From Escherichia phage EC100: DNA of 64,000 bases. The notes below the pieces were generated by a model. It ran no database searches. It was not told where the DNA came from and saw nothing but the letters and a program-made list of their open reading frames with translations. A program made the position numbers and the translations under genes. The stretch lies in the sequence record NC_105587.1, one strand, 5' to 3'. This document shows, one piece after another, positions 27,860-64,000 of the stretch (its first letter is position 1; the number at the start of each line of letters is the position of its first letter).

Positions 27860-28228
27860 TTACATCGCCTGAGTAAATGTACGACTAATAACGTCGTTCT
27901 GTTGTTCACGCGTCAATGCGTTAAAACGTACAGCGTACCCTGAAACACGGATAGTTAATTGAGGGTATTTTTCAGGATGTTTCTGCGCATCCAAAAGCTG
28001 ATCACGGCTTAATACATTGACATTTAGGTGCTGACCACCTTCGATTTGAGGGGCGACTTCCACTTTGACTTCACGGAAGGCTTCGGGATCGAATTGTGGT
28101 GTGATACCTTCTAGATCTTCAACTAGAACTTTCTGTTTAAGTTCACCATTGTCGGAGTATAGCTGAATAATCTGATTTTCATGAACAAGGTTAATTACGC
28201 CAGATTTAAGATTTTGATATGCTTTCAT
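27860..28228 (-). CDS. autonomous glycyl-radical cofactor (GrcA/YfiD-like)
   Basis: 122 aa; C-terminus '[11 protein letters not shown]...[35 protein letters not shown]' nearly superimposes on E. coli GrcA. Confidence 0.8.
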
Positions 28229-45054: not shown

Positions 45055-45504
45055 TTAATTTATTAACTGTAAGCTTCTTTTAATTTCAGACCTTACCTGC
45101 ATCAAAAGAACTCCCAAAGTATTATCCCCGATGCCTCGGCAAACACCCCAATATGTATCTCCCCAGGTATTTCCTTCAATCAAAGTTGCATTTTCTGTTG
45201 CTAACAGTTTATCTCTCAAATCAGGGAGTGCAAACTTTAACCGTAAAAGCTCTAGCATTACATCATCTTTTACCTTATCCCAGTCAGAGCGTAGAGTTAA
45301 TTTACGTCCTCTACGTTTAGCAACTCCTGCATTTAGGGAGCGTAGTACATGAGCTACATCATCTTTTTGGTCGGATTTCATAGCCTGAAAAGCATGTTCT
45401 ACAGTATCAGCATGCCATATTTCATTTAGATATTCGAAAGTAATTGGTGATAAATAAAAGTTAGATAAGAAACTATAAGCACCTTTAAATTCAGTAATCT
45501 TCAT
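45055..45504 (-). CDS. NADAR (YbiA-like) domain protein
   Basis: 149 aa; 'FLSNFYLSPI', 'EHAFQAMK', 'AKRRGRK', 'DWDKVKDDVM', 'TWGDTYWG', 'NTLGVLLMQVR' align with E. coli YbiA/NADAR blocks. Confidence 0.8.
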   Translation of the reverse strand: MKITEFKGAYSFLSNFYLSPITFEYLNEIWHADTVEHAFQAMKSDQKDDVAHVLRSLNAGVAKRRGRKLTLRSDWDKVKDDVMLELLRLKFALPDLRDKLLATENATLIEGNTWGDTYWGVCRGIGDNTLGVLLMQVRSEIKRSLQLIN

Positions 45505-53051: not shown

Positions 53052-54926
53052 ATGAATCGCAATGATGAACTAAAGTACAAGGAAATGCAGTCCTTGATTA
53101 GAAACTGCAAAGAAATTATTGAGGGTTCTGCTGATGAAGAGCTTCTCTTTAATAATGCGAATAAACCCTCTGAGCGTTTCCCTACACAAAGGGATATGCT
53201 TGCAGGGGAATTGAGTAAATATCTGATTCTAGAAGAAATGCCAATTCAGATTCGAAATGCTCATATGATTGGTGATATTCACTTTCATGATGCTGATTAC
53301 GCTGCTTTAGGCATGACTAACTGTTGCCTAGTAGCCCTGGAAGATATGTTGAAAAATGGTATGAAAGTTGGTAATGCTGAAATTAGCACTCCAAACTCTA
53401 TCACTACTGCGGCTGCTATTACAGCTCAGATTATCACACAGGTTAGTTCCCATCAGTATGGAGGTACTTCTGTAGACCGATTAGATGAGGTATTGGCTCC
53501 TTATGTTCGTAAGTCTTATGATAAGAATCATGCGTTTGCAAAACGTTGGACTAAGGATGAAGCCAAAGCATCAGTAATGGCTACGGAGATGACTGAAAAA
53601 GAAGTCTATGATGCTTGTCAAGGTCTAGAGTATGAAATCAATACGATGTTCAACTCTAATGGTCAGAGTCCATTTATTACCTTTGGTTTTGGTCTAGGAA
53701 CTTCTTGGGAAGCACGTCTAGTACAGAAAGCAATACTGAAAGTACGTATGGATGGCTTAGGCATCAATAAACGTACAGCTATCTTTCCGAAACTGGTGTT
53801 TGTTCTGCGTGATGGCGTAAATATGAAGCCAGGAGATGTTAATTATGACATCAAGAAGTTAGCTATGAAATGTACTGCTGAACGTATGTATCCGGACTAT
53901 ATAAGCTATGATAAGGTTGTGGAAGTTACGGGCGACTATAAAGTTTCTATGGGCTGCCGTTCATTCCTAGCTGCTACAGAAGATGGTGAAACTGCCGGTC
54001 GTAATAACTTAGGTGTTGTTTCTATAAACTTGCCTAGAATTGCTATCGAAGCTGAGGGGAATATTGATCTATTCTTTGATTTGCTTGAGTTACGTGTGGA
54101 TACAGCGTTAAAAGCATTGGAGTGGAGGGTTGATCGCTTAAAATACATTCAAGCTAAAGCCGCACCCATCCTCTATATGTCAGGAGCCTTTGGATTACGC
54201 TTAGGGCCTGATGAGTATGTATTCGATCATTTCTATAACCGTGCTTCTGTATCTCTGGGGTATATTGGTTGCCATGAAATGTTACAGTTCATGTTTGGCA
54301 AAGATGTGGATACAATGTCAGACACCTGTATTAAGTTTGTACAACGTGTTCTACAGTATATGCGGGATAGAGTGGATCAGAAGAAGGAAGAGACTCAGTT
54401 AGGCTATAGTCTGTATGCTACACCATCAGAGTCCCTATGTGATCGCTTTTGTCGTCTAGACCATGAATATTTCCCGGAGCATGAAGATATTCTGTCCAAA
54501 GGTTACTACACTAACTCACACCACCTCGATGTGGAGCGTAAGGTTGCTCCAAACGTGAAGTTTGACTATGAATCTAATTTTACTCCAATTGCATCTGGTG
54601 GGTGTATTTCCTACGTGGAATTACCAGACATGAAACGATTCCCAGATGCACTGGAATGGGTTATTAACTATGCTGCTAGTAAGGTTCATTACTTTGGTAT
54701 TAATACTCCAGTGGATTCTTGTGGTAAATGTGGATTCTTAGGTGAAACAGTAGCATCCGAAGATGGATTCAAGTGCCCTATCTGTGGTAATCATGACCCT
54801 GAAACTCTTGAAGTAACTCGTCGAGTTTGTGGGTATCTTGGAAATCCAGGTGCTCGTCCGTTTAACCCAGGCAAACAACATGAGGTTATGGGCAGGGTGA
54901 AACATCAGGATATTCTAGCTAAATAA
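53052..54926 (+). CDS. nrdD: anaerobic ribonucleoside-triphosphate reductase
   Basis: 624 aa; C-terminal Zn ribbon 'CGKCGF...CPICG' and glycyl-radical motif 'RVCGYLG'. Confidence 0.85.
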   Translation: MNRNDELKYKEMQSLIRNCKEIIEGSADEELLFNNANKPSERFPTQRDMLAGELSKYLILEEMPIQIRNAHMIGDIHFHDADYAALGMTNCCLVALEDMLKNGMKVGNAEISTPNSITTAAAITAQIITQVSSHQYGGTSVDRLDEVLAPYVRKSYDKNHAFAKRWTKDEAKASVMATEMTEKEVYDACQGLEYEINTMFNSNGQSPFITFGFGLGTSWEARLVQKAILKVRMDGLGINKRTAIFPKLVFVLRDGVNMKPGDVNYDIKKLAMKCTAERMYPDYISYDKVVEVTGDYKVSMGCRSFLAATEDGETAGRNNLGVVSINLPRIAIEAEGNIDLFFDLLELRVDTALKALEWRVDRLKYIQAKAAPILYMSGAFGLRLGPDEYVFDHFYNRASVSLGYIGCHEMLQFMFGKDVDTMSDTCIKFVQRVLQYMRDRVDQKKEETQLGYSLYATPSESLCDRFCRLDHEYFPEHEDILSKGYYTNSHHLDVERKVAPNVKFDYESNFTPIASGGCISYVELPDMKRFPDALEWVINYAASKVHYFGINTPVDSCGKCGFLGETVASEDGFKCPICGNHDPETLEVTRRVCGYLGNPGARPFNPGKQHEVMGRVKHQDILAK

Positions 54927-54928
54927 GC

Positions 54929-54960
54929 TAATCAGCCAGGTTGCTAGTCGACCTGGCTTT
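54929..54960 (+). terminator. rho-independent terminator downstream of nrdD
   Basis: AGCCAGGT-loop-ACCTGGCT then TTTTATTTT. Confidence 0.65.
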
Positions 54961-54968
54961 TATTTTAT

Positions 54969-54997
54969 TTGCTTTCAGCTAAAAATTTATGTATAAT
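54969..54997 (+). promoter_or_regulatory. strong sigma70 early promoter (PN25 type)
   Basis: TTGCTT/17 bp/TATAAT followed by 'AGATTTATAAATTTGAGAGGAG' leader. Confidence 0.65.
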
Positions 54998-55025
54998 AGA
55001 TTTATAAATTTGAGAGGAGAAAGAT

Positions 55026-55238
55026 ATGAGGATTCATAAGGTAGATAAAGATCGTATCTATTTTGTTATGGACTCAGGAGCATATGGTTCCATTCTCTGT
55101 GAGGATATAACTAAATTATGTTTAGTAAATACTTGGATGGACGAAGAGAAGATTGATCCTAGGGCGGGATTGTGCTTATCTGAGCCCGCCCTTTCTATTG
55201 CTAATGCAGAAATTGAAATGTTTGAGGAACAAGAATGA
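55026..55238 (+). CDS. hypothetical protein
   Basis: 70 aa; GGAGA RBS; promoter upstream. Confidence 0.5.
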   Translation: MRIHKVDKDRIYFVMDSGAYGSILCEDITKLCLVNTWMDEEKIDPRAGLCLSEPALSIANAEIEMFEEQE

Positions 55239-55438
55239 AAAACGTAAAACATCTTAAATATCGCTTAATTTACAACGGACGTATGGAAACAGAAGATCTG
55301 GCCCAACTAGCTATTAATTCTAATGAGGTTACAGTGCGTGCACTGGCAATTGAAAAGTTGCGTGCTTCTTATGAAAATCGTGTTATGGAACTAGAGGAGA
55401 AACTTTATGGACTTCTTGAATCAGAATCTAAAAAGTAA
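55235..55438 (+). CDS. hypothetical protein
   Basis: 67 aa, start overlaps upstream stop. Confidence 0.45.
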   Translation: MKNVKHLKYRLIYNGRMETEDLAQLAINSNEVTVRALAIEKLRASYENRVMELEEKLYGLLESESKK

Positions 55439-55601
55439 TCCAGAAAACATGCTTATTGAGCAGTGGAACTTTGGTTATAATGCTGGTGTAGCTACTTGTA
55501 TTGCTAGATTGGATATGCTTATTAAACAAGAAAAGGTACGCCCGGAGGAAGCAATTTTACTCCGAAATATTATCGAAGGATTTAAGCAAGGAATCGTATA
55601 G
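55407..55601 (+). CDS. hypothetical protein
   Basis: 64-aa ORF. Confidence 0.4.
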   Translation: MDFLNQNLKSNPENMLIEQWNFGYNAGVATCIARLDMLIKQEKVRPEEAILLRNIIEGFKQGIV

Positions 55602-56437
55602 TGCGTAGATTAATTATTATTAGCGGTGCGGGTTTGAGTGTTGAAAGTGGTGTACGAGCTTTTCGTACTGATACTGCTAGTGGTAAAGCATTGTGGGATG
55701 ATTATGACTTAGAAGAGGTATGTAATATTCATGCCTTTCGTGGTAATTTTTATCATAAAACTCATATGTTTTACAACAAGCGTCGTGAAGAGCTAAAAAC
55801 TGTTGAACCCAATCTTGCACACTTGCGTATTGGTGAATGGTATAAGAAATATCCGGGTCAAGTAGTAAACTTGACTACCAACGTTGATGACCTTATTGAG
55901 CGTGCTGGCGTTCCACATAGTGACATTCTGCACATTCATGGGTATTTAAAAGAGGTTGTTGTAGCTGATAGCTACAATAGTAGCAATAAACGAATTATTG
56001 ATATTGGGTATAGCTCTATTGACCCAGATGATTATAAATGGGTTAAACCTAATGTAATCTTCTTCGGGGAACATGCTCCAGCATATGCAGAAATGTACAA
56101 TGTTTTTGATGGTATTACCAGTCAAGATATGATCATTGTGGTTGGTTGCTCTAATCAAGTAATTAACTTCTACTGGGAATTATTCCCTGTTCTTAATCTG
56201 ACTTCTGCAAAACTTATGGTAGTTAACTACTATGATAGTGCTCTAGCGGTGGAACCAGGCTATCAAGGTATGACTCGTAGTGAGATGTACCAATTGGAAG
56301 AACGCGGTATCCCTTACTGGAGTAAAGGTGCGGTAGATGCTTTCAGTGACCCTGGTTTTATTGCTCGTGTAGAAGCCCATTTAGAGGGTAGACCTTATGT
56401 GCCGGAGAGAATGGGGAACAAATATGTCCATAGTTAA
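55601..56437 (+). CDS. Sir2-family (sirtuin-like) NAD-dependent enzyme
   Basis: 278 aa; 'GAGLSVESGVRAFR', 'NVDDL...AG', catalytic-His 'HIHG', 'NVIFFGE'; no Zn-ribbon cysteines. Confidence 0.65.
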   Translation: MRRLIIISGAGLSVESGVRAFRTDTASGKALWDDYDLEEVCNIHAFRGNFYHKTHMFYNKRREELKTVEPNLAHLRIGEWYKKYPGQVVNLTTNVDDLIERAGVPHSDILHIHGYLKEVVVADSYNSSNKRIIDIGYSSIDPDDYKWVKPNVIFFGEHAPAYAEMYNVFDGITSQDMIIVVGCSNQVINFYWELFPVLNLTSAKLMVVNYYDSALAVEPGYQGMTRSEMYQLEERGIPYWSKGAVDAFSDPGFIARVEAHLEGRPYVPERMGNKYVHS

Positions 56438-56606
56438 ATCTGTGTATACACATCCCGATGATATATTTGTATGGGCGGATGGTAGTTGGTGTTATCGATG
56501 TGAGCTATGGGAAATGGACTATAAATCCGATGACTATGGTGTCATATATGTTGATACGGCTGAGTATGATACGTTCTTAGAAAGGAACAAAAATGGAAAT
56601 AAGTAA
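56424..56606 (+). CDS. hypothetical protein
   Basis: ORF trimmed to internal Met. Confidence 0.35.
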   Translation: MSIVKSVYTHPDDIFVWADGSWCYRCELWEMDYKSDDYGVIYVDTAEYDTFLERNKNGNK

Positions 56607-57099
56607 TACTCCAATTATTTTTCTAGACATTGATGGGGTGCTTAATTCGAGCATCTCCCACCATCATGCACCTGATGATGAAAAGATTTTCTTTGGAAGT
56701 GACTGGGTTTTTAAACCACTTCTCAAGGCTTTTCAGGACTTTATTCGTCCTTCTCCAATAATGATTGTTGGGGTATCTTCATGGTTCTCTGTCAAGAATG
56801 AGATGGAGAACGTTCAGATTATGGCCGGATTAGATCTTATCGATCGTTTTCTTGGTACAACGGATTTTACTGGTGGTGGGCTATCTAGAGGTAATTCTGT
56901 TCTTCGCTTCGTTGAAAAGCATAAGCTCAAACATTGGTGTGTGCTGGATGACGCTGGTGCTATGATGTATCAGTATCCAACGGTTATAGTCAACGGTAGA
57001 ACTGGAATAAATCTTCAAGATTTAAGAGCTGTTAGCTATATGTTAGAATTTAGTCCAGATCTTGAAATGTGTAAAGCCCTACAACAATTTAAGGTGTAA
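56593..57099 (+). CDS. HAD-like phosphatase (tentative)
   Basis: 168 aa; 'IIFLDIDGVLNS' DxDGV motif I. Confidence 0.5.
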   Translation: MEISNTPIIFLDIDGVLNSSISHHHAPDDEKIFFGSDWVFKPLLKAFQDFIRPSPIMIVGVSSWFSVKNEMENVQIMAGLDLIDRFLGTTDFTGGGLSRGNSVLRFVEKHKLKHWCVLDDAGAMMYQYPTVIVNGRTGINLQDLRAVSYMLEFSPDLEMCKALQQFKV

Positions 57100-57101
57100 A
57101 T

Positions 57102-57530
57102 ATGTTCAATAATGTATTCTCTAAAGAAGCTAACCCAATATTGGTTAATTTTTGGCGTACTCTTCCAGACAACCTGTACAATGAGGCTATTAATGCTCTG
57201 AAAATATGGTGTGAGAATAATGAAATCTCCTTTGCTTTTAAAGGTGAGATTGAAGAAGCTCCCTGTATTGGTTTAATTGTGCAGGTAGAGGATGGCTTTG
57301 AAGAGATTGTCGGCTGGAAAGAGTTAGATGAAATGGGCTTGGTTTTTGCGTTAAACTATAAGCTGTTTATGCCTAATAAGCACCGTATTGTTGTTAACTA
57401 TAAAACCAGTGAATCTCCGGGCTTTCAAGTTAATGAACATTACGGTTGGTCTTACTCACCGGAAGAAGTAAATGATGGTATACAAAAACTTCGTCGTTTT
57501 GGTTATCAAATTCCGGGTTTAACCGCCTAA
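57102..57530 (+). CDS. hypothetical protein (paralog of next gene)
   Basis: 142 aa; shares 'W.ELDEMGL..ALN..LF' and C-terminal 'G..IPGL' with 57541..57933. Confidence 0.5.
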   Translation: MFNNVFSKEANPILVNFWRTLPDNLYNEAINALKIWCENNEISFAFKGEIEEAPCIGLIVQVEDGFEEIVGWKELDEMGLVFALNYKLFMPNKHRIVVNYKTSESPGFQVNEHYGWSYSPEEVNDGIQKLRRFGYQIPGLTA

Positions 57531-57540
57531 AGGGGGCACA

Positions 57541-57933
57541 ATGGAACAAGTATATTGGCGTCAGATTGATCCTAGTTTGGTGAAGCGTGCGGAGAAGCTG
57601 CTACAACGTTGGTTGGGGGTAAGACAAGCCTCCTTCACTTTTCCGGAGCAGCAAATAGACGATCCCTGTGTTGGTGTTTTCCTATCAGGCTACGCTAGGG
57701 AATGGGAATTGGATTGGAATGAATTGTCTGCTATGGGTTTAATTGTTGCACTAAATTTCTCTTTGTTCCATCCACGTGGTTTGGCCATATGTCGTGTGCC
57801 TGATGACGGTTGTTCGCCCCATCTTTTACAGGTGGAAGATGATATTTGGGAGTACACTCCAGATATTCTCAAAGAAGCCAAAGAACAATTAAACCGTGTT
57901 GGGATCTATGTTCCGGGGCTAAATGATAAATGA
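57541..57933 (+). CDS. hypothetical protein (paralog of previous gene)
   Basis: 130 aa; GGGGG RBS; terminator follows. Confidence 0.5.
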   Translation: MEQVYWRQIDPSLVKRAEKLLQRWLGVRQASFTFPEQQIDDPCVGVFLSGYAREWELDWNELSAMGLIVALNFSLFHPRGLAICRVPDDGCSPHLLQVEDDIWEYTPDILKEAKEQLNRVGIYVPGLNDK

Positions 57934-57957
57934 TTTTTATTAGTTGACCTCTGATTA

Positions 57958-57985
57958 CCGAGTCATTTTGGCTCGGTTTTCTCTA
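57958..57985 (+). terminator. rho-independent terminator
   Basis: CCGAGTCA-TTTTG-GCTCGG then TTTTCT. Confidence 0.55.
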
Positions 57986-58024
57986 TGCTCAAAGACACTG
58001 ATAGCACCATCCGGAAAATTTTAC

Positions 58025-58053
58025 TTGCAGGATGCCCAAAATCTTGATATAAT
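58025..58053 (+). promoter_or_regulatory. putative extended -10 sigma70 promoter
   Basis: TTGCAG/17 bp/TGaTATAAT; ~490 nt upstream of GTG 58551. Confidence 0.4.
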
Positions 58054-58550
58054 ATTTATATTGAATTGAGAGACATTAGTAAAAATTGATTTTGCTAATT
58101 TTTCTTGTTTACAATCCGCGATACGGAACAGTTAGGCTGCCCCATTAAGGGTTGTTTTAACTATTACTAGTGTTTATATTGCATTAGTTAATCTTCAATT
58201 AAGTGATCTGTGTACCCTGAATTCGGAAAGGTAAATCCAAACCGTGCATATTTAGCTCGTTATATAGGCAGAGTTTTATATGGGGGTGCGAACGAAAAGA
58301 GCAGCGAATGGCGGCACGTACAGTAGTCACCTACCAATAGGATAGTGAGGACAAATAGAATCGGCTTAGCGGCCAATGACCTAGGTTCTATTCTGTATAT
58401 GAGCGAAGAGAGCACAGCACTGAGATATGATAACTTATTCATATTGTTTGATGATAATTGATGTTTACGTAAATAGTAGTAATAGTTGTTCTATTCTTTC
58501 TGAATAGTCCTAAAGAAAAGATTTCGATTAACCAACACAGGAGTATTGTT

Positions 58551-60389
58551 GTGTTTTCTATCCTTCAAGGTCACGCCGGATTTTCTCGTGATTTAGCAAC
58601 AGGTATTTGGCGAGAAATCAAAGCGGAAGATTATACCTTTGCCAAGCGATTCTCGAAAGAGCATCCAGAAGGTAAACCAGCTTCTATGCCCTTCAAATTT
58701 GATGTAATAGAAGAGCACGACCCACAAAGCCTTGCCGAAATGTTACCCCTTATGAGACGTTTAACGTCTGACCCTCATATCGTTGCGGTACGAGGTCGAT
58801 GTCTTGCACCTAAAAATAATGTGCGACGTAAGAAAGGTAACTTTAATGTATCTAATCCTAGTAATATTATTGCTATGGACGTGGATGGTATCCTAGATAC
58901 CGGTGGGTACGACAAATTTAATCTTGTTGGTATGGCCCGCCACATTATTAAGATGTTGAATAGTATTAGTGAGGATATGTTTCCTCTTGATGCAGGCTTT
59001 ATAGCTCATGCATCATCTTCGGCTGGGCTAAAACCAGGTATCCGAATGCACTTAATGCTAGAATCTAACGTCAAGGTAACTCAGGGTCAGCTAAAGTTCT
59101 TATTTACATCTATCAACGATAGTAGTAAGCAAAAATTTGGTTTTGATATTGCCGACCTAGCTTATTATTCATCTGTCCAGCTCCACTATTTTGCCGACCC
59201 CTTATTTAGCGATGGTATTGTTGATCCGTTTAAAGCGGAGAGTAAGCCACGTCTGGTGTATGTTAAAGGTTCGAAAGTAAATTTGCCCAATAATCTAGTT
59301 GACTATGAAACAACTAGAGGGGAGTTTAAGGAAGAGTTTTATTCTTTACTTGATCAAATTAAAGGCAAAAAGATTGCTTCTGATAAAGTAGAAGAAACCA
59401 TCAGCGAGTTAGAAGAGGCTGATGATGGAGTGTATTTGCGTATTATCCCCAAACTATACCATAGAGCATTAGAGGATGGTGTTGATTTTGCATGGCTAGA
59501 ACGTGAGATTAAACCAGCTTTATCTGAATATATTGCAACTAAAGATAACAGTCGTAATATTCAAGATTACTTTAATAACGGTCGTAAGCAGGCTCTCAAA
59601 GCGTTTGTTAATAATTCTAAACGTGAGATTCCATTAAATCTGAAAGGTGTTCCACTTAAGAAATTAGAAGTGGATTCTCCACCAGAAGTTCCATACCTGA
59701 AGATTAATATTGTGCCCCCAAAAGGCCATATAACATTTGTTAAGGCAAGTCTTGGTACGGGTAAAACTACGGCAGTAACTAAATGGCTGGACGCAGGTGT
59801 TCTTCCGGGCAACTTTTTAGCAGTTACAAATACTAGAGCACTGGTATCTTCAAATGCCAAGAAATTTAGTGCAGGACAATACGATAAGTCTGTAGATATG
59901 CTCAACTTTAAGCGTGGAGCTATTGATCGTATGTCCACAACTATTCACTCTTTGCATAAGTTCAAAAGTTTTATTGGGCAAATAGACACCATTTTTATTG
60001 ATGAATGTGACGCTGTAATGAATGACCTATTATTCGCCCCTGTTGTTAAACAACGTCGTGAGTGTATTCAAGTTCTACGTGACATCCTCATGACAGCTAA
60101 GACTGTAATCTTATCCGATGGTGATATTAGTGCTGAGACGATTGAAGCATATGGTTCTCTAATTGATTTTGATAAACCGGTTGCATTTTATAATCATCAC
60201 CGTAAAATGCTGTCAAAAGCTCATGCTTATGAGTTCCCTGATGAGTCCAGTATTTGGGTTGCACTTCAGACTTCTCTAGAGATGGGTGAGAAATCTATTC
60301 TAGTATCTGATTGTGGCCCGGATGAGCTAAATGAGAAAGGTATGGCACTGCGTCGTAATACGGGTGCGTTAGTTAAGGAAATCCATTGA
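58551..60389 (+). CDS. replication protein, N-terminal part (primase-polymerase-like plus P-loop NTPase)
   Basis: GTG start after ACAGGAG RBS; 'IAMDVDG' and 'HASSSAG..IRMHLM' (AEP-like), Walker A 'SLGTGKTT', Walker B 'IFIDECD'; ends at TGA 60387-60389. Confidence 0.6.
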   Translation: MFSILQGHAGFSRDLATGIWREIKAEDYTFAKRFSKEHPEGKPASMPFKFDVIEEHDPQSLAEMLPLMRRLTSDPHIVAVRGRCLAPKNNVRRKKGNFNVSNPSNIIAMDVDGILDTGGYDKFNLVGMARHIIKMLNSISEDMFPLDAGFIAHASSSAGLKPGIRMHLMLESNVKVTQGQLKFLFTSINDSSKQKFGFDIADLAYYSSVQLHYFADPLFSDGIVDPFKAESKPRLVYVKGSKVNLPNNLVDYETTRGEFKEEFYSLLDQIKGKKIASDKVEETISELEEADDGVYLRIIPKLYHRALEDGVDFAWLEREIKPALSEYIATKDNSRNIQDYFNNGRKQALKAFVNNSKREIPLNLKGVPLKKLEVDSPPEVPYLKINIVPPKGHITFVKASLGTGKTTAVTKWLDAGVLPGNFLAVTNTRALVSSNAKKFSAGQYDKSVDMLNFKRGAIDRMSTTIHSLHKFKSFIGQIDTIFIDECDAVMNDLLFAPVVKQRRECIQVLRDILMTAKTVILSDGDISAETIEAYGSLIDFDKPVAFYNHHRKMLSKAHAYEFPDESSIWVALQTSLEMGEKSILVSDCGPDELNEKGMALRRNTGALVKEIH

Positions 60390-60404
60390 AACTCTACCTC
60401 AGAT

Positions 60405-61340
60405 GTGGATATTCGACGTATTCTGGATTACACAACTAATGAACTAATTGATCAACAAATTGATTGCTTATTATGTAGTCCATCCGTAACGAGTGGTGTT
60501 GACTTTAACTATTTTGATAACGTATTTGTGATTACTAGAACTAGTAATCAAGCGCCAAACATGCGTTTCCAAGCAATCAGGCGCGACCGTGGTGCTCAGA
60601 ATATCTATTATTTTATTGATAAATCCACTAGTGGATTCTCCGCAGGTTCTGAACAATATAATATTGATGAGGGTTGGCTGGAGTTAGCACAGCAATTATA
60701 TGCACGTCGCAGGGAGCTGGAATCTAGGAACTATACTAGTACTTTACGTTATTACTTGCTTGATCAGGGTGCAACTATTGATATTTTCAGTGAAAGCTGG
60801 GGAACTATTGAAGGTGCTGGTAAAGAGTACACAGAAGAGCGAATCAAAGCTATTCTGCACTCAACTCCTGATTATTGTGCTCCACGTCATGCGGATGCGT
60901 ATGAAGCTAAGCTACTTCTTGTTCGCTATTATCATCTCGAGTCTATTAAAGATGTAACAGTTGAGCATGTTGAACAATATATAAAAGATAAACCGAATGA
61001 TCGAGCTGCATTCTTCCATAAGATGCACGAGATGTTCTGGGAAGATATTAAGAAGTGTTCAAATGTGACCATTAAACCATTCATAGAGGCTCTGAAAGGT
61101 AAGAAGAAAGATTTCTTCCTTAAAACCGGTCAGAGTGCTAACCCAAAATATGCTAGAATGTATCTTGGCATGATGGGTATTGGTAAGGATATGAACACGG
61201 AGAATATCGTAGACTGGTACAGAACCTACTGTAAAATCGAGTGTATGCCAATTCCTTATAAATTCATGACTGACGAGGAAAAACATATGCACGATGAAGC
61301 AATGTCAGAGCTAGGTGCTAGAAATGACAGTGAAGAATAA
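60405..61340 (+). CDS. replication protein, C-terminal part (same frame as 58551..60389)
   Basis: 311 aa; in frame with upstream ORF, separated by a single TGA plus 5 codons. Confidence 0.5.
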   Translation: MDIRRILDYTTNELIDQQIDCLLCSPSVTSGVDFNYFDNVFVITRTSNQAPNMRFQAIRRDRGAQNIYYFIDKSTSGFSAGSEQYNIDEGWLELAQQLYARRRELESRNYTSTLRYYLLDQGATIDIFSESWGTIEGAGKEYTEERIKAILHSTPDYCAPRHADAYEAKLLLVRYYHLESIKDVTVEHVEQYIKDKPNDRAAFFHKMHEMFWEDIKKCSNVTIKPFIEALKGKKKDFFLKTGQSANPKYARMYLGMMGIGKDMNTENIVDWYRTYCKIECMPIPYKFMTDEEKHMHDEAMSELGARNDSEE

Positions 61341-63881: not shown

Positions 63882-64000
63882 ATGACCAATGTAAAAGAAT
63901 TTATTAAACGCTGTCAAGAAGCATATTATCAAGGCATGTCTTTAATCTCTGATGAAGAATATGATCGCCTGGTAAAACGCTTCCCGTTAGAGGAAGAGAT
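63882..64000 (+). CDS. NAD-dependent DNA ligase, N-terminal fragment (runs off window)
   Basis: 'MTNVKEFIKRCQEAYYQGMSLISDEEYDRLVKRF' resembles LigA N-terminal domain; promoter upstream. Confidence 0.55.
   Translation, partial: MTNVKEFIKRCQEAYYQGMSLISDEEYDRLVKRFPLEEE

What the first reader, a model, noticed from the sequence alone, without database searches (positions are those of the whole stretch)
55601..57933. Sirtuin-like protein without zinc ribbon, followed by a HAD-like protein and a tandem paralog pair
55601-56437 has the Sir2 NAD pocket (GAGLSVESGVRAFR) and catalytic His (HIHG) but none of the four Zn-binding cysteines of classical deacetylases, which is more like the Sir2-like NAD-consuming effector domains. 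It is followed by a DxDGV HAD-like protein and two paralogous 130-142-aa proteins. With NADAR and an NAD-dependent ligase in the same window, the phage has several NAD/ADP-ribose-handling functions. This block may modify host proteins or NAD pools.
Basis: inference. Interest (0 to 1): 0.5.

Follow-up and report, generated by a model that had tools for sequence, protein, structure and literature searches.

The report
Zinc-less phage sirtuin with HAD phosphatase
This is the known, non-essential early operon of T5-like phages, encoding a zinc-free sirtuin, a small phosphatase and two proteins of unknown function; the zinc loss and the gene linkage are already published, but nobody has tested what the enzymes act on.

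Summary
The window is 100% identical to Escherichia phage EC122, a T5-like phage, and the block corresponds to T5 genes T5.102-T5.107. It holds a Sir2-family protein with no zinc cysteines, a cap-less HAD_SAK_2 phosphatase and two DUF7415 paralogs (31% identical).

The suggestion that the sirtuin resembles NAD-consuming defence effectors is not supported. By sequence and predicted fold it is nearest to class III deacylases (E. coli CobB, SIRT5). It keeps their Tyr/Arg anion-binding pair and matches no defence model.

Both the zinc loss (Skliros 2016) and the sirtuin-HAD neighbourhood in T5-like phages (Iyer et al. 2022, who predicted Tpt1/KptA-like RNA repair) are published. I found no experimental test.

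- The sirtuin and HAD genes stay linked in at least three gene orders.
- They are lost together in two viable T5-like genomes.
- The HAD's nearest non-T5 relatives sit at the head of NARP1 NAD+-rebuilding operons, one of them in a phage shown to lack the sirtuin.
- In Vequintavirinae the sirtuin sits inside an RNA ligase/kinase cluster.
- The DUF7415 pair behaves independently and associates with deoxynucleotide enzymes.

Best model, at moderate confidence: an NAD+-dependent RNA-healing step plus clearance of phosphorylated ADP-ribose. A plain protein deacylase remains a close rival.

The parts
54934..54958 (+). Terminator-like hairpin after nrdD; upstream boundary of the unit
   Evidence: 10-bp stem, 6 GC pairs, T-run. 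T5 has an annotated terminator at the equivalent place.
54969..54997 (+). Promoter-like site: TTGCTT, 17-nt spacer, TATAAT
   Evidence: Read directly from the sequence. T5 has an annotated promoter at the equivalent position. The consensus scan did not list it.
55026..55238 (+). Small ORF, 70 aa, function unknown
   Evidence: phrog_20147, E=2e-39. Present in only some T5-like loci.
55235..55438 (+). Small ORF, 67 aa, function unknown
   Evidence: phrog_5236, E=1e-46. Present upstream of the sirtuin gene in nearly all Tequintavirus/Epseptimavirus loci.
55407..55601 (+). Small ORF, 64 aa, function unknown; not annotated in the GenBank record. Its TAG stop overlaps the sirtuin GTG start by 1 nt.
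   Evidence: phrog_5827, E=2e-31. The overlap was read from the sequence. The ORF is absent from the ON185583 annotation.
55601..56437 (+). Zinc-less, class III-like sirtuin (T5.102 homolog), 278 aa
   Evidence: PF02146, E=9e-25. Best PDB sequence match is CobB 1s5p, E=2e-17. AF2 model has pLDDT 88.9. Foldseek top hits are CobB, Sir2-Af1 and SIRT5. Invariant residues in the 69-sequence alignment: G9 A10 G11 S13 F21 R22 Y58 R61 R62 T93 N94 D96 H113 G114. No CxxC in 120 homologs.
56424..56606 (+). Small conserved ORF (T5.104 homolog; 60 aa as annotated, 69 aa from the ATG at 56397). It overlaps both neighbouring genes.
   Evidence: phrog_5116, E=3e-30. Present between the sirtuin and HAD genes, or downstream of the sirtuin gene, in most T5-like loci.
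56593..57099 (+). Cap-less HAD phosphatase, HAD_SAK_2 family (T5.105 homolog), 168 aa
   Evidence: PF18143, E=3e-20, full length. HAD motifs I-IV are invariant. No PDB sequence match. Relatives at 36-40% identity sit at the head of Adps-Namat (NARP1) operons.
57102..57530 (+). DUF7415 protein, paralog A (T5.106 homolog), 142 aa, two DUF7415 repeats
   Evidence: PF24187, E=3e-33, 2 stretches. 31% identical to paralog B.
57541..57933 (+). DUF7415 protein, paralog B (T5.107 homolog), 130 aa, two DUF7415 repeats
57957..57977 (+). Terminator-like hairpin; downstream boundary of the unit
   Evidence: 9-bp stem, 5 GC pairs, T-run. T5 has an annotated terminator at the equivalent place.

Best explanation
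The block is the accessory early operon T5.100-T5.107 of T5-like phages. It contains two functionally separate parts.

(1) A sirtuin + HAD pair.
- The sirtuin descends from class III sirtuins and has lost its zinc. All NAD+-binding and catalytic residues are conserved, so it is most likely an active NAD+-dependent ADP-ribosyl-transfer enzyme.
- The best-supported model follows Iyer et al. 2022. The sirtuin does Tpt1/KptA-like chemistry on damaged RNA. An RNA 2'-phosphate (internal or terminal) attacks C1'' of NAD+ and nicotinamide leaves. [quoted passage not shown]
- The cap-less HAD then removes a phosphate. My refinement is that its substrate is most likely the phosphorylated ADP-ribose by-product (ADPR-1''-P or a similar molecule). 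This is the job done by the Macro enzymes Poa1p in yeast and Adpp in phage NARP1-AP operons. The alternative substrate is an RNA terminal phosphate.

(2) The tandem DUF7415 pair. This is a separate module of unknown biochemistry whose relatives associate with deoxynucleotide-metabolism enzymes.

Shown here: domain identities, conservation of catalytic residues, gene linkage patterns, dispensability.
Inferred: the substrates, the chemistry and the order of the steps.
For: The sirtuin is probably active:
- GAGxS, F21-R22, N94, D96 and H113-G114 are invariant in the 69-sequence alignment, and every one of 120 homologs has a [TS]TNVD motif.
- The AF2 model is confident (pLDDT 88.9).
- The Y58/R61 pair, which binds an anionic group in CobB (Y92/R95) and SIRT5, is invariant. 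An anionic substrate such as a phosphate would fit it.

RNA-repair context of close orthologs (50-65% identity):
- In 12 Vequintavirinae/Mydovirus-type loci the sirtuin gene sits in the order Metallophos - Rnl1 RNA ligase - cREC - polynucleotide kinase - sirtuin - ATP ligase, often with overlapping stop and start codons.
- In a 608-kb phage contig an Rnl1 ligase lies two genes upstream of the sirtuin gene.
- Iyer et al. 2022 (PMC9503650, section 3.7.3) describe the same three neighbourhood types. They name T5-like phage SP15 for the sirtuin + SAK-HAD type and propose the KptA analogy.

Sirtuin-HAD coupling:
- The pair is found in at least three gene orders: sirtuin-x-HAD here, HAD-x-sirtuin in L130 and L132, and HAD-x-x-sirtuin in L070. 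It occurs with or without nrdD and with or without DUF7415.
- Both genes are lost, by different deletions, in DT57C and in L089.

HAD and phosphorylated ADP-ribose:
- HAD relatives at 36-40% identity lie just upstream of Adps-Namat (NARP1) in three ~150-kb phage genomes or contigs: directly adjacent in one and one small ORF away in the other two.
- One of these phages, ChuuTotoro, has no sirtuin anywhere in its genome.
- 15% of NARP1-carrying phages have a Macro ADPR-1''P phosphatase, Adpp, associated with the operon. Adpp is a homolog of yeast Poa1p, which clears the Tpt1 by-product (bioRxiv 10.64898/2026.01.28.702374).

Other support:
- The HAD has no cap domain (168 aa, core only) and invariant catalytic motifs.
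- The phage carries about 20 tRNA genes, so tRNA integrity plausibly matters to it.
Against: - I found no experiment on any phage sirtuin.
- The 64-kb window has no homolog of the Vequintavirinae-cluster RNA ligase, polynucleotide kinase, cREC or Metallophos proteins by tblastn. I did not search for 2H-type enzymes. A route to a 2'-phosphate RNA substrate in T5-like phages is therefore not evident from the part of the genome examined.
- All 120 clade members are acidic (pI 4.6-6.05, median 5.2). That is unusual for an enzyme that grips RNA.
- The nearest characterised relatives are all protein deacylases.
- A Vequintavirinae-like contig (L133) has the same RNA-repair cluster with no sirtuin gene in the kinase/ligase slot. 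The sirtuin is therefore not an obligatory part of that cluster and may just occupy a variable slot.
- Sugarlandvirus and L059 have the sirtuin without the HAD.
- Many sirtuin loci from ~150-kb phages have uninformative neighbours.
- The HAD-NARP1 linkage was seen in only three genomes or contigs.
Confidence: 0.35

Rival explanations
1. The sirtuin is an ordinary CobB/SIRT5-like protein lysine deacylase (deacetylase or desuccinylase). It resets acyl marks on host or phage proteins during infection, for example reactivating acetyl-CoA synthetase as proposed for KVP40-like phages. The HAD and DUF7415 genes are merely neighbours.
For: - Best sequence and fold matches are CobB, Sir2-Af1 and SIRT5.
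- The class III Tyr/Arg pair that reads succinyl or malonyl carboxylates is invariant.
- The FGE loop is kept as FFGE.
- The acidic pI resembles that of the CobB core (5.4).
- Skliros et al. 2016 (PMC5107563) modelled the zinc-less KVP40-type enzyme and argued that the acetyl-lysine tunnel is kept.
- In one phage contig the sirtuin gene sits next to Nampt, which recycles the nicotinamide that any sirtuin reaction releases.
Against: - It scores far below the NCBIfam CobB equivalog cut-offs (99 vs 243 bits; 90 vs 320 bits).
- The four zinc ligands are lost in the whole clade.
- The Gln of the QNID motif is Thr, or Ser in four homologs, throughout the clade.
- The CobB substrate-side loop V-Y-P is V-I-N here.
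- This model does not explain the persistent linkage with a phosphatase or the sirtuin's place inside RNA ligase/kinase clusters.
Confidence: 0.3
2. The pair is a counter-defence module acting on NAD+-derived small molecules, not on RNA. The HAD dephosphorylates ADPR-1''-P made by RES-type NAD+ phosphorylases (aRES), or 2'-phospho-ADPR derived from NADP+. The sirtuin processes or detoxifies another ADP-ribose conjugate or signal.
For: - HAD relatives lie at the head of NARP1 operons in phages, and one of those phages was shown to lack the sirtuin.
- Osterman et al. 2026 show that phages add an ADPR-1''P phosphatase to NARP1 to defeat aRES.
- Distant HAD_SAK_2 genes occur near Nampt.
- The sirtuin and HAD genes are dispensable and are lost together, as is typical of anti-defence cargo.
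- T5-like phages are known to invest in NAD+ defence evasion (NARP3, PMC13464706) and carry NADAR.
Against: - The window has no Adps or Namat homolog by tblastn, so ADPR made by the HAD could not be rebuilt into NAD+ by NARP1 unless those genes lie in the unexamined remainder of the genome.
- No known role exists for a sirtuin in removing ADPR-based signals.
- This model does not explain the sirtuin's place in RNA ligase/kinase clusters.
Confidence: 0.15
3. One reading: the zinc-less sirtuin is an NADase-type effector, like ThsA, DSR or Sir2-HerA. It consumes NAD+ to reprogram or shut down the host.
For: - Loss of the zinc cysteines is also a trait of defence-type Sir2 domains (general knowledge).
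- The phage has several NAD-linked genes.
Against: - There is no PADLOC hit.
- Pfam assigns the classical SIR2 family, not a defence-type one.
- None of the 50 fold matches listed is a defence Sir2.
- The zinc-module strands are retained.
- The phage depends on NAD+ for its own DNA ligase, and relatives rebuild NAD+, so depleting it would harm the phage.
Confidence: 0.06
4. The whole block is an accessory to deoxynucleotide synthesis downstream of nrdD. The HAD is a nucleotidase, the DUF7415 proteins are adaptors or regulators of dNTP enzymes, and the sirtuin regulates one of those enzymes.
For: - The block follows nrdD in almost all Demerecviridae loci, and sirtuin genes lie near nrdD in two more distant contigs (L065, L066).
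- A single-domain DUF7415 ORF lies between nrdD and nrdG in Jiaodavirus phages and next to nudE in RB43.
- The DUF7415 domain is fused to thymidylate kinase, to a MazG-like dATP/dGTP pyrophosphohydrolase and to an ASCH/DUF3850 domain.
Against: - L130 has HAD-x-sirtuin with no nrdD and no DUF7415.
- Vequintavirinae sirtuin genes are not near ribonucleotide reductase genes.
- The HAD is cap-less, which under the published HAD classification (recalled, not tested here) favours large substrates over free nucleotides.
- This reading fits the DUF7415 pair well but fits the sirtuin and HAD poorly.
Confidence: 0.08

Closest known systems
Viral sirtuin clade of Iyer, Burroughs, Anantharaman & Aravind 2022 (Viruses 14:1977), neighbourhood type 3 (Escherichia phage SP15: sirtuin + Swiss-army-knife-like HAD)
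   Same: This is the same gene pair in the same phage group. SP15 is a T5-like phage whose HAD is 98% identical to this one. The paper already proposes KptA-like removal of RNA 2'-phosphate, with the HAD either processing RNA ends or acting on ADPr>P.
   Different: Nothing differs in the object itself. The published claim is computational only.
E. coli CobB and human SIRT5 (class III sirtuins; NAD+-dependent lysine deacetylase, desuccinylase, demalonylase)
   Same: Best sequence and fold matches. Shared features: GAGxS, the FR cofactor loop, N and D of QNID, the catalytic HG, the FGE loop, and the Tyr/Arg pair (Y58/R61 = CobB Y92/R95).
   Different: About 25% identity. All four zinc cysteines are absent. 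The Gln of QNID is Thr. The V-Y-P loop is V-I-N. There is an extra insert at about residues 210-222 and a C-terminal tail. The protein scores far below the CobB equivalog cut-offs.
Sir2/CobB of KVP40-like Vibrio phages (phiSt2, phiGrn1; Skliros et al. 2016, PMC5107563)
   Same: This is a phage sirtuin reported to lack the zinc site, and the paper names T5 as having a homolog. tblastn gives about 41% identity over 74% of the query.
   Different: It is more divergent and sits in an NAD+-salvage context. In contig L066, which may or may not be KVP40-like, a related sirtuin gene lies next to Nampt. Those authors proposed deacetylation of acetyl-CoA synthetase; that was not tested.
Tpt1/KptA RNA 2'-phosphotransferase
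   Same: This is the proposed functional analog. Both enzymes use NAD+, release nicotinamide, and proceed through attack of an oxyanion on C1'' followed by attack of the ADP-ribose 2''-OH. Some Tpt1 enzymes also remove terminal 2'- and 3'-phosphates (PMC6573784, listed). Both are associated with RNA ligase and kinase genes.
   Different: The fold is unrelated (Tpt1 belongs to the ART superfamily, this protein has a Rossmann sirtuin fold). No activity data exist for the phage protein. The phage protein is acidic.
Adpp, the Macro-domain ADPR-1''P phosphatase of NARP1-AP operons, and yeast Poa1p
   Same: HAD relatives sit with the Adps and Namat genes of NARP1 operons, as Adpp does. In the operon that paper cloned, Adpp lies between Adps and Namat, whereas the HAD lies upstream of Adps. 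Poa1p clears the by-product of the Tpt1 reaction.
   Different: The fold is different (HAD versus Macro). The HAD substrate is untested. The window has no NARP1 genes.
Defence-associated Sir2 NADases (ThsA, DSR1/2, Sir2-HerA, SPARSA)
   Same: Sirtuin-superfamily Rossmann fold, NAD+ as substrate, and no zinc cysteines.
   Different: There is no PADLOC match. None of the 50 fold matches listed is a defence Sir2. The protein is a stand-alone 278-aa enzyme encoded by a lytic phage, with no sensor or partner domains.

Membership tests
Sirtuin / Sir2 family (Pfam PF02146) | Score above the family gathering threshold over the whole catalytic core | tested here: met
   88.1 bits against a cut-off of 24; profile positions 1-178 of 180.
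Sirtuin / Sir2 family (Pfam PF02146) | Rossmann NAD+ motif GAGxS and cofactor-loop FR | tested here: met
   G9 A10 G11 S13 S16 G17 F21 R22 are invariant in the 69-sequence alignment.
Sirtuin / Sir2 family (Pfam PF02146) | QNID motif (Gln, Asn, Asp contacting the nicotinamide ribose) | tested here: inconclusive
   N94 and D96 are invariant, but the Gln is Thr (T93): TTNVD in 116 and STNVD in 4 of 120 homologs.
Sirtuin / Sir2 family (Pfam PF02146) | Catalytic His in an HG motif | tested here: met
   H113 and G114 are invariant and align with the CobB HMHG motif.
Sirtuin / Sir2 family (Pfam PF02146) | Four-cysteine zinc-binding module | tested here: not met
   There are two Cys in total and none in the module. 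No CxxC occurs in 120 homologs. The three strands of the module are still predicted (residues 114-122, 131-134, 147-152).
Class III sirtuins (CobB/SIRT5 type) | Tyr-x-x-Arg pair that binds an acidic acyl group | tested here: met
   F57 Y58 N59 x R61 R62 aligns with CobB FYNARRR (Y92/R95). The residues are invariant in the clade.
Class III sirtuins (CobB/SIRT5 type) | Equivalog-level similarity to CobB | tested here: not met
   NCBIfam NF001753 gives 98.9 bits against a cut-off of 243; NF040867 gives 89.7 against 320.
Class III sirtuins (CobB/SIRT5 type) | NAD+-dependent lysine deacylase activity | not testable with these tools
   This needs an enzyme assay. No published assay was found.
Defence-type Sir2 NADase effectors | Match to models of known defence-system Sir2 proteins, or a defence-type fold neighbourhood | tested here: not met
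   PADLOC gives no hits. The Foldseek top 50 are all deacylase sirtuins.
HAD_SAK_2 (Pfam PF18143), HAD superfamily phosphatase | Score above the gathering threshold, plus HAD motifs I-IV | tested here: met
   73.5 bits against a cut-off of 27.5; profile positions 1-138 of 139. D12xD14, S62/S63, R99 and D119D120 are invariant.
HAD_SAK_2 (Pfam PF18143), HAD superfamily phosphatase | Embedded in an RNA-repair gene set (ligase or kinase) in this genome | tested here: not met
   tblastn finds no homolog of the Vequintavirinae-cluster RNA ligase, kinase or cREC in the 64-kb window. Some distant family members do lie near kinase-Rnl1-Metallophos genes.
Tpt1/KptA-like RNA 2'-phosphotransferase (functional class, not a homology family) | NAD+-dependent removal of RNA 2'-phosphate with formation of ADPR-1'',2''-cyclic phosphate | not testable with these tools
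   The only support is contextual. The fold is unrelated to Tpt1, so this could only ever be 'works like', never membership.
NARP1-AP (Adps + Namat + ADPR-1''P phosphatase) | Presence of Adps and Namat genes next to the phosphatase gene | tested here: not met
   The window has no Adps or Namat homolog. The feature is met only for HAD relatives in L069, L071 and L133.
DUF7415 (Pfam PF24187) | Score above the gathering threshold | tested here: met
   114.2 and 108.3 bits against a cut-off of 27, with two stretches in each protein.

The most novel reading that the evidence does not exclude
The zinc-less phage sirtuin is the first sirtuin-fold enzyme to act on nucleic acid rather than protein. It would be an NAD+-dependent RNA 2'-phosphate remover, convergent with Tpt1/KptA. 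Its partner HAD would be a non-Macro analog of Poa1p/Adpp that dephosphorylates the ADP-ribose-phosphate by-product. The same HAD would have been recruited in other phages to feed NARP1 and so defeat RES-type NAD+ phosphorolysis. About a thousand sequenced phages would then carry an unrecognised RNA-healing and NAD-recycling step.
Probability: 0.3. Interest if true: 0.75.

Novelty: already known. Interest (0 to 1): 0.35.

Why it matters
This sirtuin clade occurs in about 1000 sequenced phage genomes, including model phage T5 and many phages proposed for therapy, yet its substrate has never been tested.

If the RNA-repair prediction holds:
- It would extend sirtuin chemistry from acyl-lysine to RNA phosphate.
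- It would explain how tRNA-rich phages survive RNA-cleaving defences.

If the HAD is an ADP-ribose-phosphate phosphatase:
- It would be a second, non-Macro solution to RES-type NAD+ depletion.

If the sirtuin is simply a deacylase:
- It would show that phages rewrite the host acylome.

Either way, the enzymes are small and soluble-looking, natural deletion mutants exist (DT57C), and the assays are straightforward.

Tried and rejected
- Defence-effector reading of the sirtuin: rejected on PADLOC and fold search.
- RefSeq label 'Sir2 (NAD-dependent deacetylase)' on the HAD gene (T5.105): rejected as an annotation artefact. phrog_18062 matches sirtuin residues 169-215 and HAD residues 77-168. 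That is the composition of the chimeric remnant in DT57C.
- PDB sequence search for the HAD and for DUF7415: nothing significant.
- Rfam on 54000-59000: only a chance-level hit.
- KptA, 2H or Macro domains near the RNA ligase of sirtuin-less relatives (ChuuTotoro, L133): none found among the ten ORFs scanned. A sirtuin/KptA mutual-exclusion test could not be done.
- Neighbours of sirtuin genes in several ~150-kb phages (L043, L049, L054): uninformative, only a DNA methylase and DUFs.
- NARP3 (PnuC + NadR) in this window: a 330-aa candidate ORF and its 137-aa neighbour had no Pfam hit. I did not pursue this further.
- UGA-suppressor explanation for the in-frame TGA in the replication gene: no tRNA with a UCA anticodon was found. 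The odd tRNA-like gene has a degenerate anticodon arm.
- Burroughs & Aravind 2016, the source of the SAK-HAD definition, is not in the held library.
- Searches for T5.102, T5.105-107 and DUF7415 in papers: zero hits.

Full report
**Identity of the window and the block.** Positions 55000-58600 are 100% identical, at the same coordinates, to Escherichia phage EC122 (ON185583). EC122 is a Tequintavirus, and this stretch is about 95% identical to phage T5. The finding corresponds to T5 genes T5.102 (Sir2-like), T5.104, T5.105, T5.106 and T5.107. The unit is bounded by terminator-like hairpins at 54934-54958, after nrdD, and at 57957-57977. A TTGCTT-17-TATAAT promoter-like site lies at 54969-54997, where T5 has an annotated promoter. 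The genes are tightly packed. The stop codon of the upstream small ORF overlaps the GTG start of the sirtuin gene by one base.

**Check of the observation.**
- The 278-aa protein matches Pfam SIR2 (E=9e-25) and carries the NAD+ motifs and the HG catalytic motif.
- It has two cysteines and no CxxC, and none of 120 homologs has a CxxC.
- The next sizeable gene encodes a full-length HAD_SAK_2 protein (E=3e-20) in which all four HAD catalytic motifs are invariant among relatives.
- The last two genes are paralogs (31% identity, E=2e-19). Each is built from two copies of the Pfam DUF7415 domain.
- NADAR is at 45055-45504 on the minus strand.
- A split NAD-dependent DNA ligase starts at 63882, so only its first 39 codons fall in the window.

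**What kind of sirtuin it is.** The evidence says otherwise.
- There is no match to any PADLOC defence model.
- The best solved relatives by sequence are E. coli CobB, archaeal Sir2-Af1/Af2 and SIRT5.
- A confident AlphaFold model (pLDDT 88.9) finds the same deacylases as its top 50 Foldseek matches.
- The model still has the three beta-strands of the zinc module (residues 114-122, 131-134, 147-152). The module is retained without its metal ligands.
- In the 69-sequence alignment the NAD+-binding and catalytic residues are invariant: G9 A10 G11 S13 S16 G17 F21 R22 N94 D96 H113 G114. The class III signature F57-Y58-x-x-R61-R62 is also invariant. It aligns with CobB Y92/R95, the pair that binds acidic acyl groups.
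- Deviations specific to this clade are Thr in place of the Gln of QNID (TTNVD in 116 and STNVD in 4 of 120 homologs), V-I-N in place of the CobB V-Y-P loop, and an insert at about residues 210-222.
- It scores far below the NCBIfam CobB equivalog cut-offs.
- The protein is therefore very likely an active NAD+-dependent enzyme derived from class III sirtuins, with an altered substrate side.

**What is already published.**
- Skliros et al. 2016 (PMC5107563) noted that the Sir2/CobB of KVP40-like phages lacks the zinc site. They named T5 as having a homolog and proposed deacetylation of host acetyl-CoA synthetase.
- Iyer, Burroughs, Anantharaman and Aravind 2022 (PMC9503650) defined a distinct viral sirtuin clade with three conserved neighbourhoods. 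[quoted passage not shown] They proposed that these sirtuins act like KptA/Tpt1 in removing RNA 2'-phosphates. In their model the associated phosphoesterases either prepare the RNA end or process the ADPr>P by-product.
- I found no experimental work on any phage sirtuin, nor on T5.102 or T5.105-107.
- The finding is therefore already known as an annotated and computationally interpreted feature. Its function is open.

**Distribution and context of the sirtuin.** tblastn finds the sirtuin in 992 phage records. I fetched 59 loci from IMG/VR and searched their ORFs with seed proteins.
- In Demerecviridae the sirtuin gene lies between nrdD and the replication-origin-binding helicase gene, with variable company. 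Tequintavirus and Epseptimavirus have the sirtuin, a small ORF, the HAD and two DUF7415 genes. Phage My1 has the HAD and one DUF7415 gene. Sugarlandvirus has two DUF7415 genes but no HAD.
- In 12 loci of Vequintavirinae and Mydovirus type (50-65% identity), the order is Metallophos, Rnl1 RNA ligase, cREC, polynucleotide kinase, sirtuin, ATP-dependent ligase.
- More distant sirtuin genes lie next to Nampt, next to a nucleoside 2-deoxyribosyltransferase-like gene, or two genes from an Rnl1 ligase in a 608-kb contig.
- Several ~150-kb phages have uninformative neighbours.

**New context for the HAD.**
- Metagenomic relatives show that the HAD-sirtuin pair survives rearrangement. The orders seen are HAD-117aa-sirtuin with no nrdD and no DUF7415 (L130), nrdD-HAD-81aa-sirtuin (L132) and nrdD-79aa-HAD-117aa-108aa-sirtuin (L070).
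- Two viable T5-like genomes have lost both genes through different deletions. DT57C keeps only a 90-aa chimera of sirtuin residues ~169-215 and HAD residues ~132-168, annotated as 'defective'. L089 lacks the sirtuin and the first 63 residues of the HAD. Both keep the DUF7415 pair intact.
- This co-loss shows that the pair is dispensable for growth. It also explains why PHROG and RefSeq mislabel the HAD as 'Sir2'.
- The HAD's closest relatives outside T5-like phages (36-40% identity) lie at the head of an operon that continues with a PRPP-synthetase-like gene and a 595-aa NAPRTase-family gene. These are the Adps and Namat genes of the NAD+ reconstitution pathway NARP1. The arrangement occurs in three ~150-kb genomes or contigs.
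- One of them, Serratia phage ChuuTotoro, has no sirtuin anywhere in its genome.
- Osterman et al. 2026 showed that 15% of NARP1-carrying phages have a Macro-domain phosphatase, Adpp, associated with the operon. Adpp converts ADPR-1''-phosphate to ADPR and so defeats the RES-type defence aRES. It is a homolog of yeast Poa1p, the enzyme that clears the by-product of the Tpt1 reaction.
- The HAD's place in these operons suggests that it too acts on a phosphorylated ADP-ribose.
- Distant HAD_SAK_2 genes occur both near kinase-Rnl1-Metallophos clusters and near Nampt.

**Synthesis.** The sirtuin links to RNA repair and to the HAD, and the HAD links to NARP1. These threads meet at one known reaction. 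NAD+-dependent removal of an RNA 2'-phosphate yields nicotinamide and ADPR cyclic phosphate, and the latter is then opened and dephosphorylated. I therefore take the published KptA-analogy model as the best explanation, with the refinement that the HAD most likely clears the ADPR-phosphate by-product.

Confidence is only about 0.35, for these reasons:
- The window has no homolog of the Vequintavirinae-cluster RNA ligase, kinase or cREC.
- All clade members are acidic (median pI 5.2).
- A Vequintavirinae-like contig has the same RNA-repair cluster without a sirtuin gene.
- All characterised relatives are protein deacylases.

A CobB/SIRT5-like deacylase role is nearly as likely (about 0.3).

**The DUF7415 pair.**
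- An exhaustive profile search found 161 cluster representatives. Most are stand-alone proteins of 60-110 aa that match the second repeat.
- Fusions occur with thymidylate kinase, a MazG-like dATP/dGTP pyrophosphohydrolase, an ASCH/DUF3850 domain and, weakly (below Pfam's threshold), a ClpX-type zinc finger.
- In Jiaodavirus phages a single-domain copy sits between nrdD and nrdG. In RB43 a copy is next to nudE.
- The pair is kept when the sirtuin and HAD genes are deleted, and it is absent from several sirtuin+HAD loci.
- I therefore treat it as a separate module, probably tied to deoxynucleotide metabolism. Its biochemistry is unknown.

**Verdict.** As a feature it is already known. Interest is moderate (0.35). 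The object is ordinary for T5-like phages and already discussed in the literature. However, the substrate question is open, widely relevant and easy to test, and the most novel reading, a sirtuin acting on RNA with a HAD analog of Poa1p/Adpp, would be a notable result.

Noticed in passing
window 60387-60389 (within 58551-61340, + strand): An in-frame TGA splits the homolog of the T5.108 replication-origin-binding helicase into ORFs of 612 and 311 aa. T5 has TCA (Ser) at this codon. The GenBank record annotates one uninterrupted CDS across the stop. It could be a sequencing error, a real nonsense mutation or read-through.
   Followed up: partly
window 40158-40229 (- strand): A tRNA-like gene, annotated 'tRNA-OTHER', scores 35.5 bits on Rfam tRNA but is not called by ARAGORN. 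Its acceptor, D and T arms look normal, but the anticodon stem barely pairs. It has no UCA anticodon, so it is not an obvious suppressor for the TGA noted above.
   Followed up: partly
window 57978-58550: A stretch of about 570 nt lies between the operon terminator and the replication-origin-binding gene. Only short, unannotated ORFs (40-60 aa) fall in it. It contains a promoter-like TTGATT-18-TACAAT site at 58086-58115. There is no Rfam match. It might hold a replication origin or a long leader.
   Followed up: partly
window 56593-57099, and RefSeq T5.105: RefSeq/PHROG annotation calls the HAD protein 'Sir2 (NAD-dependent deacetylase)'. phrog_18062 appears to be built from chimeric sirtuin-HAD remnants like the 90-aa 'defective sir2' of phage DT57C, so the label is an artefact.
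   Followed up: yes
L071 8001-11217 (Serratia phage ChuuTotoro, ON287369 35888-39104); also L069 and L133: HAD_SAK_2 genes lie at the head of Adps-Namat (NARP1) operons in ~150-kb Vequintavirinae-type phages: directly adjacent to Adps in ChuuTotoro and one small ORF upstream in L069 and L133. They may be a non-Macro version of the NARP1-associated phosphatase. ChuuTotoro has no sirtuin gene.
   Followed up: partly
L005 3995-4213 (Klebsiella phage pKp20) and similar Jiaodavirus records; proteins P0196, P0234, P0238, P0270: A single-domain DUF7415 ORF sits between nrdD and nrdG in T4-like Klebsiella phages. The domain is also found fused to thymidylate kinase, to a MazG-like dATP/dGTP pyrophosphohydrolase and to an ASCH/DUF3850 domain.
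   Followed up: partly
window 27860-28228 (- strand): A 122-aa protein consists of just a glycyl-radical domain (PF01228, E=4e-18), like the GrcA/YfiD 'spare part'. The phage has nrdD, but neither the EC122 annotation of the window nor the T5 annotation around nrdD lists an nrdG activase.
   Followed up: no
window 55407-55601 (+ strand): A 64-aa ORF with a strong PHROG match (phrog_5827, E=2e-31) is missing from the GenBank annotation of EC122. Its stop codon overlaps the sirtuin start codon.
   Followed up: yes
L133 1139-5993 (151-kb metagenomic phage contig): This contig has the Vequintavirinae RNA-repair cluster (Metallophos, Rnl1, AAA_33 kinase, ATP-dependent ligase, MazG). A 101-aa ORF occupies the slot where relatives carry the sirtuin gene. 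The HAD+NARP1 operon is divergently transcribed about 4 kb away.
   Followed up: partly
window 45055-45504 (- strand): A stand-alone NADAR-domain protein (PF08719, E=9e-22). NADAR proteins of T4-like phages are cited as anti-DarT factors, so this is a candidate counter-defence gene separate from the sirtuin block.
   Followed up: no
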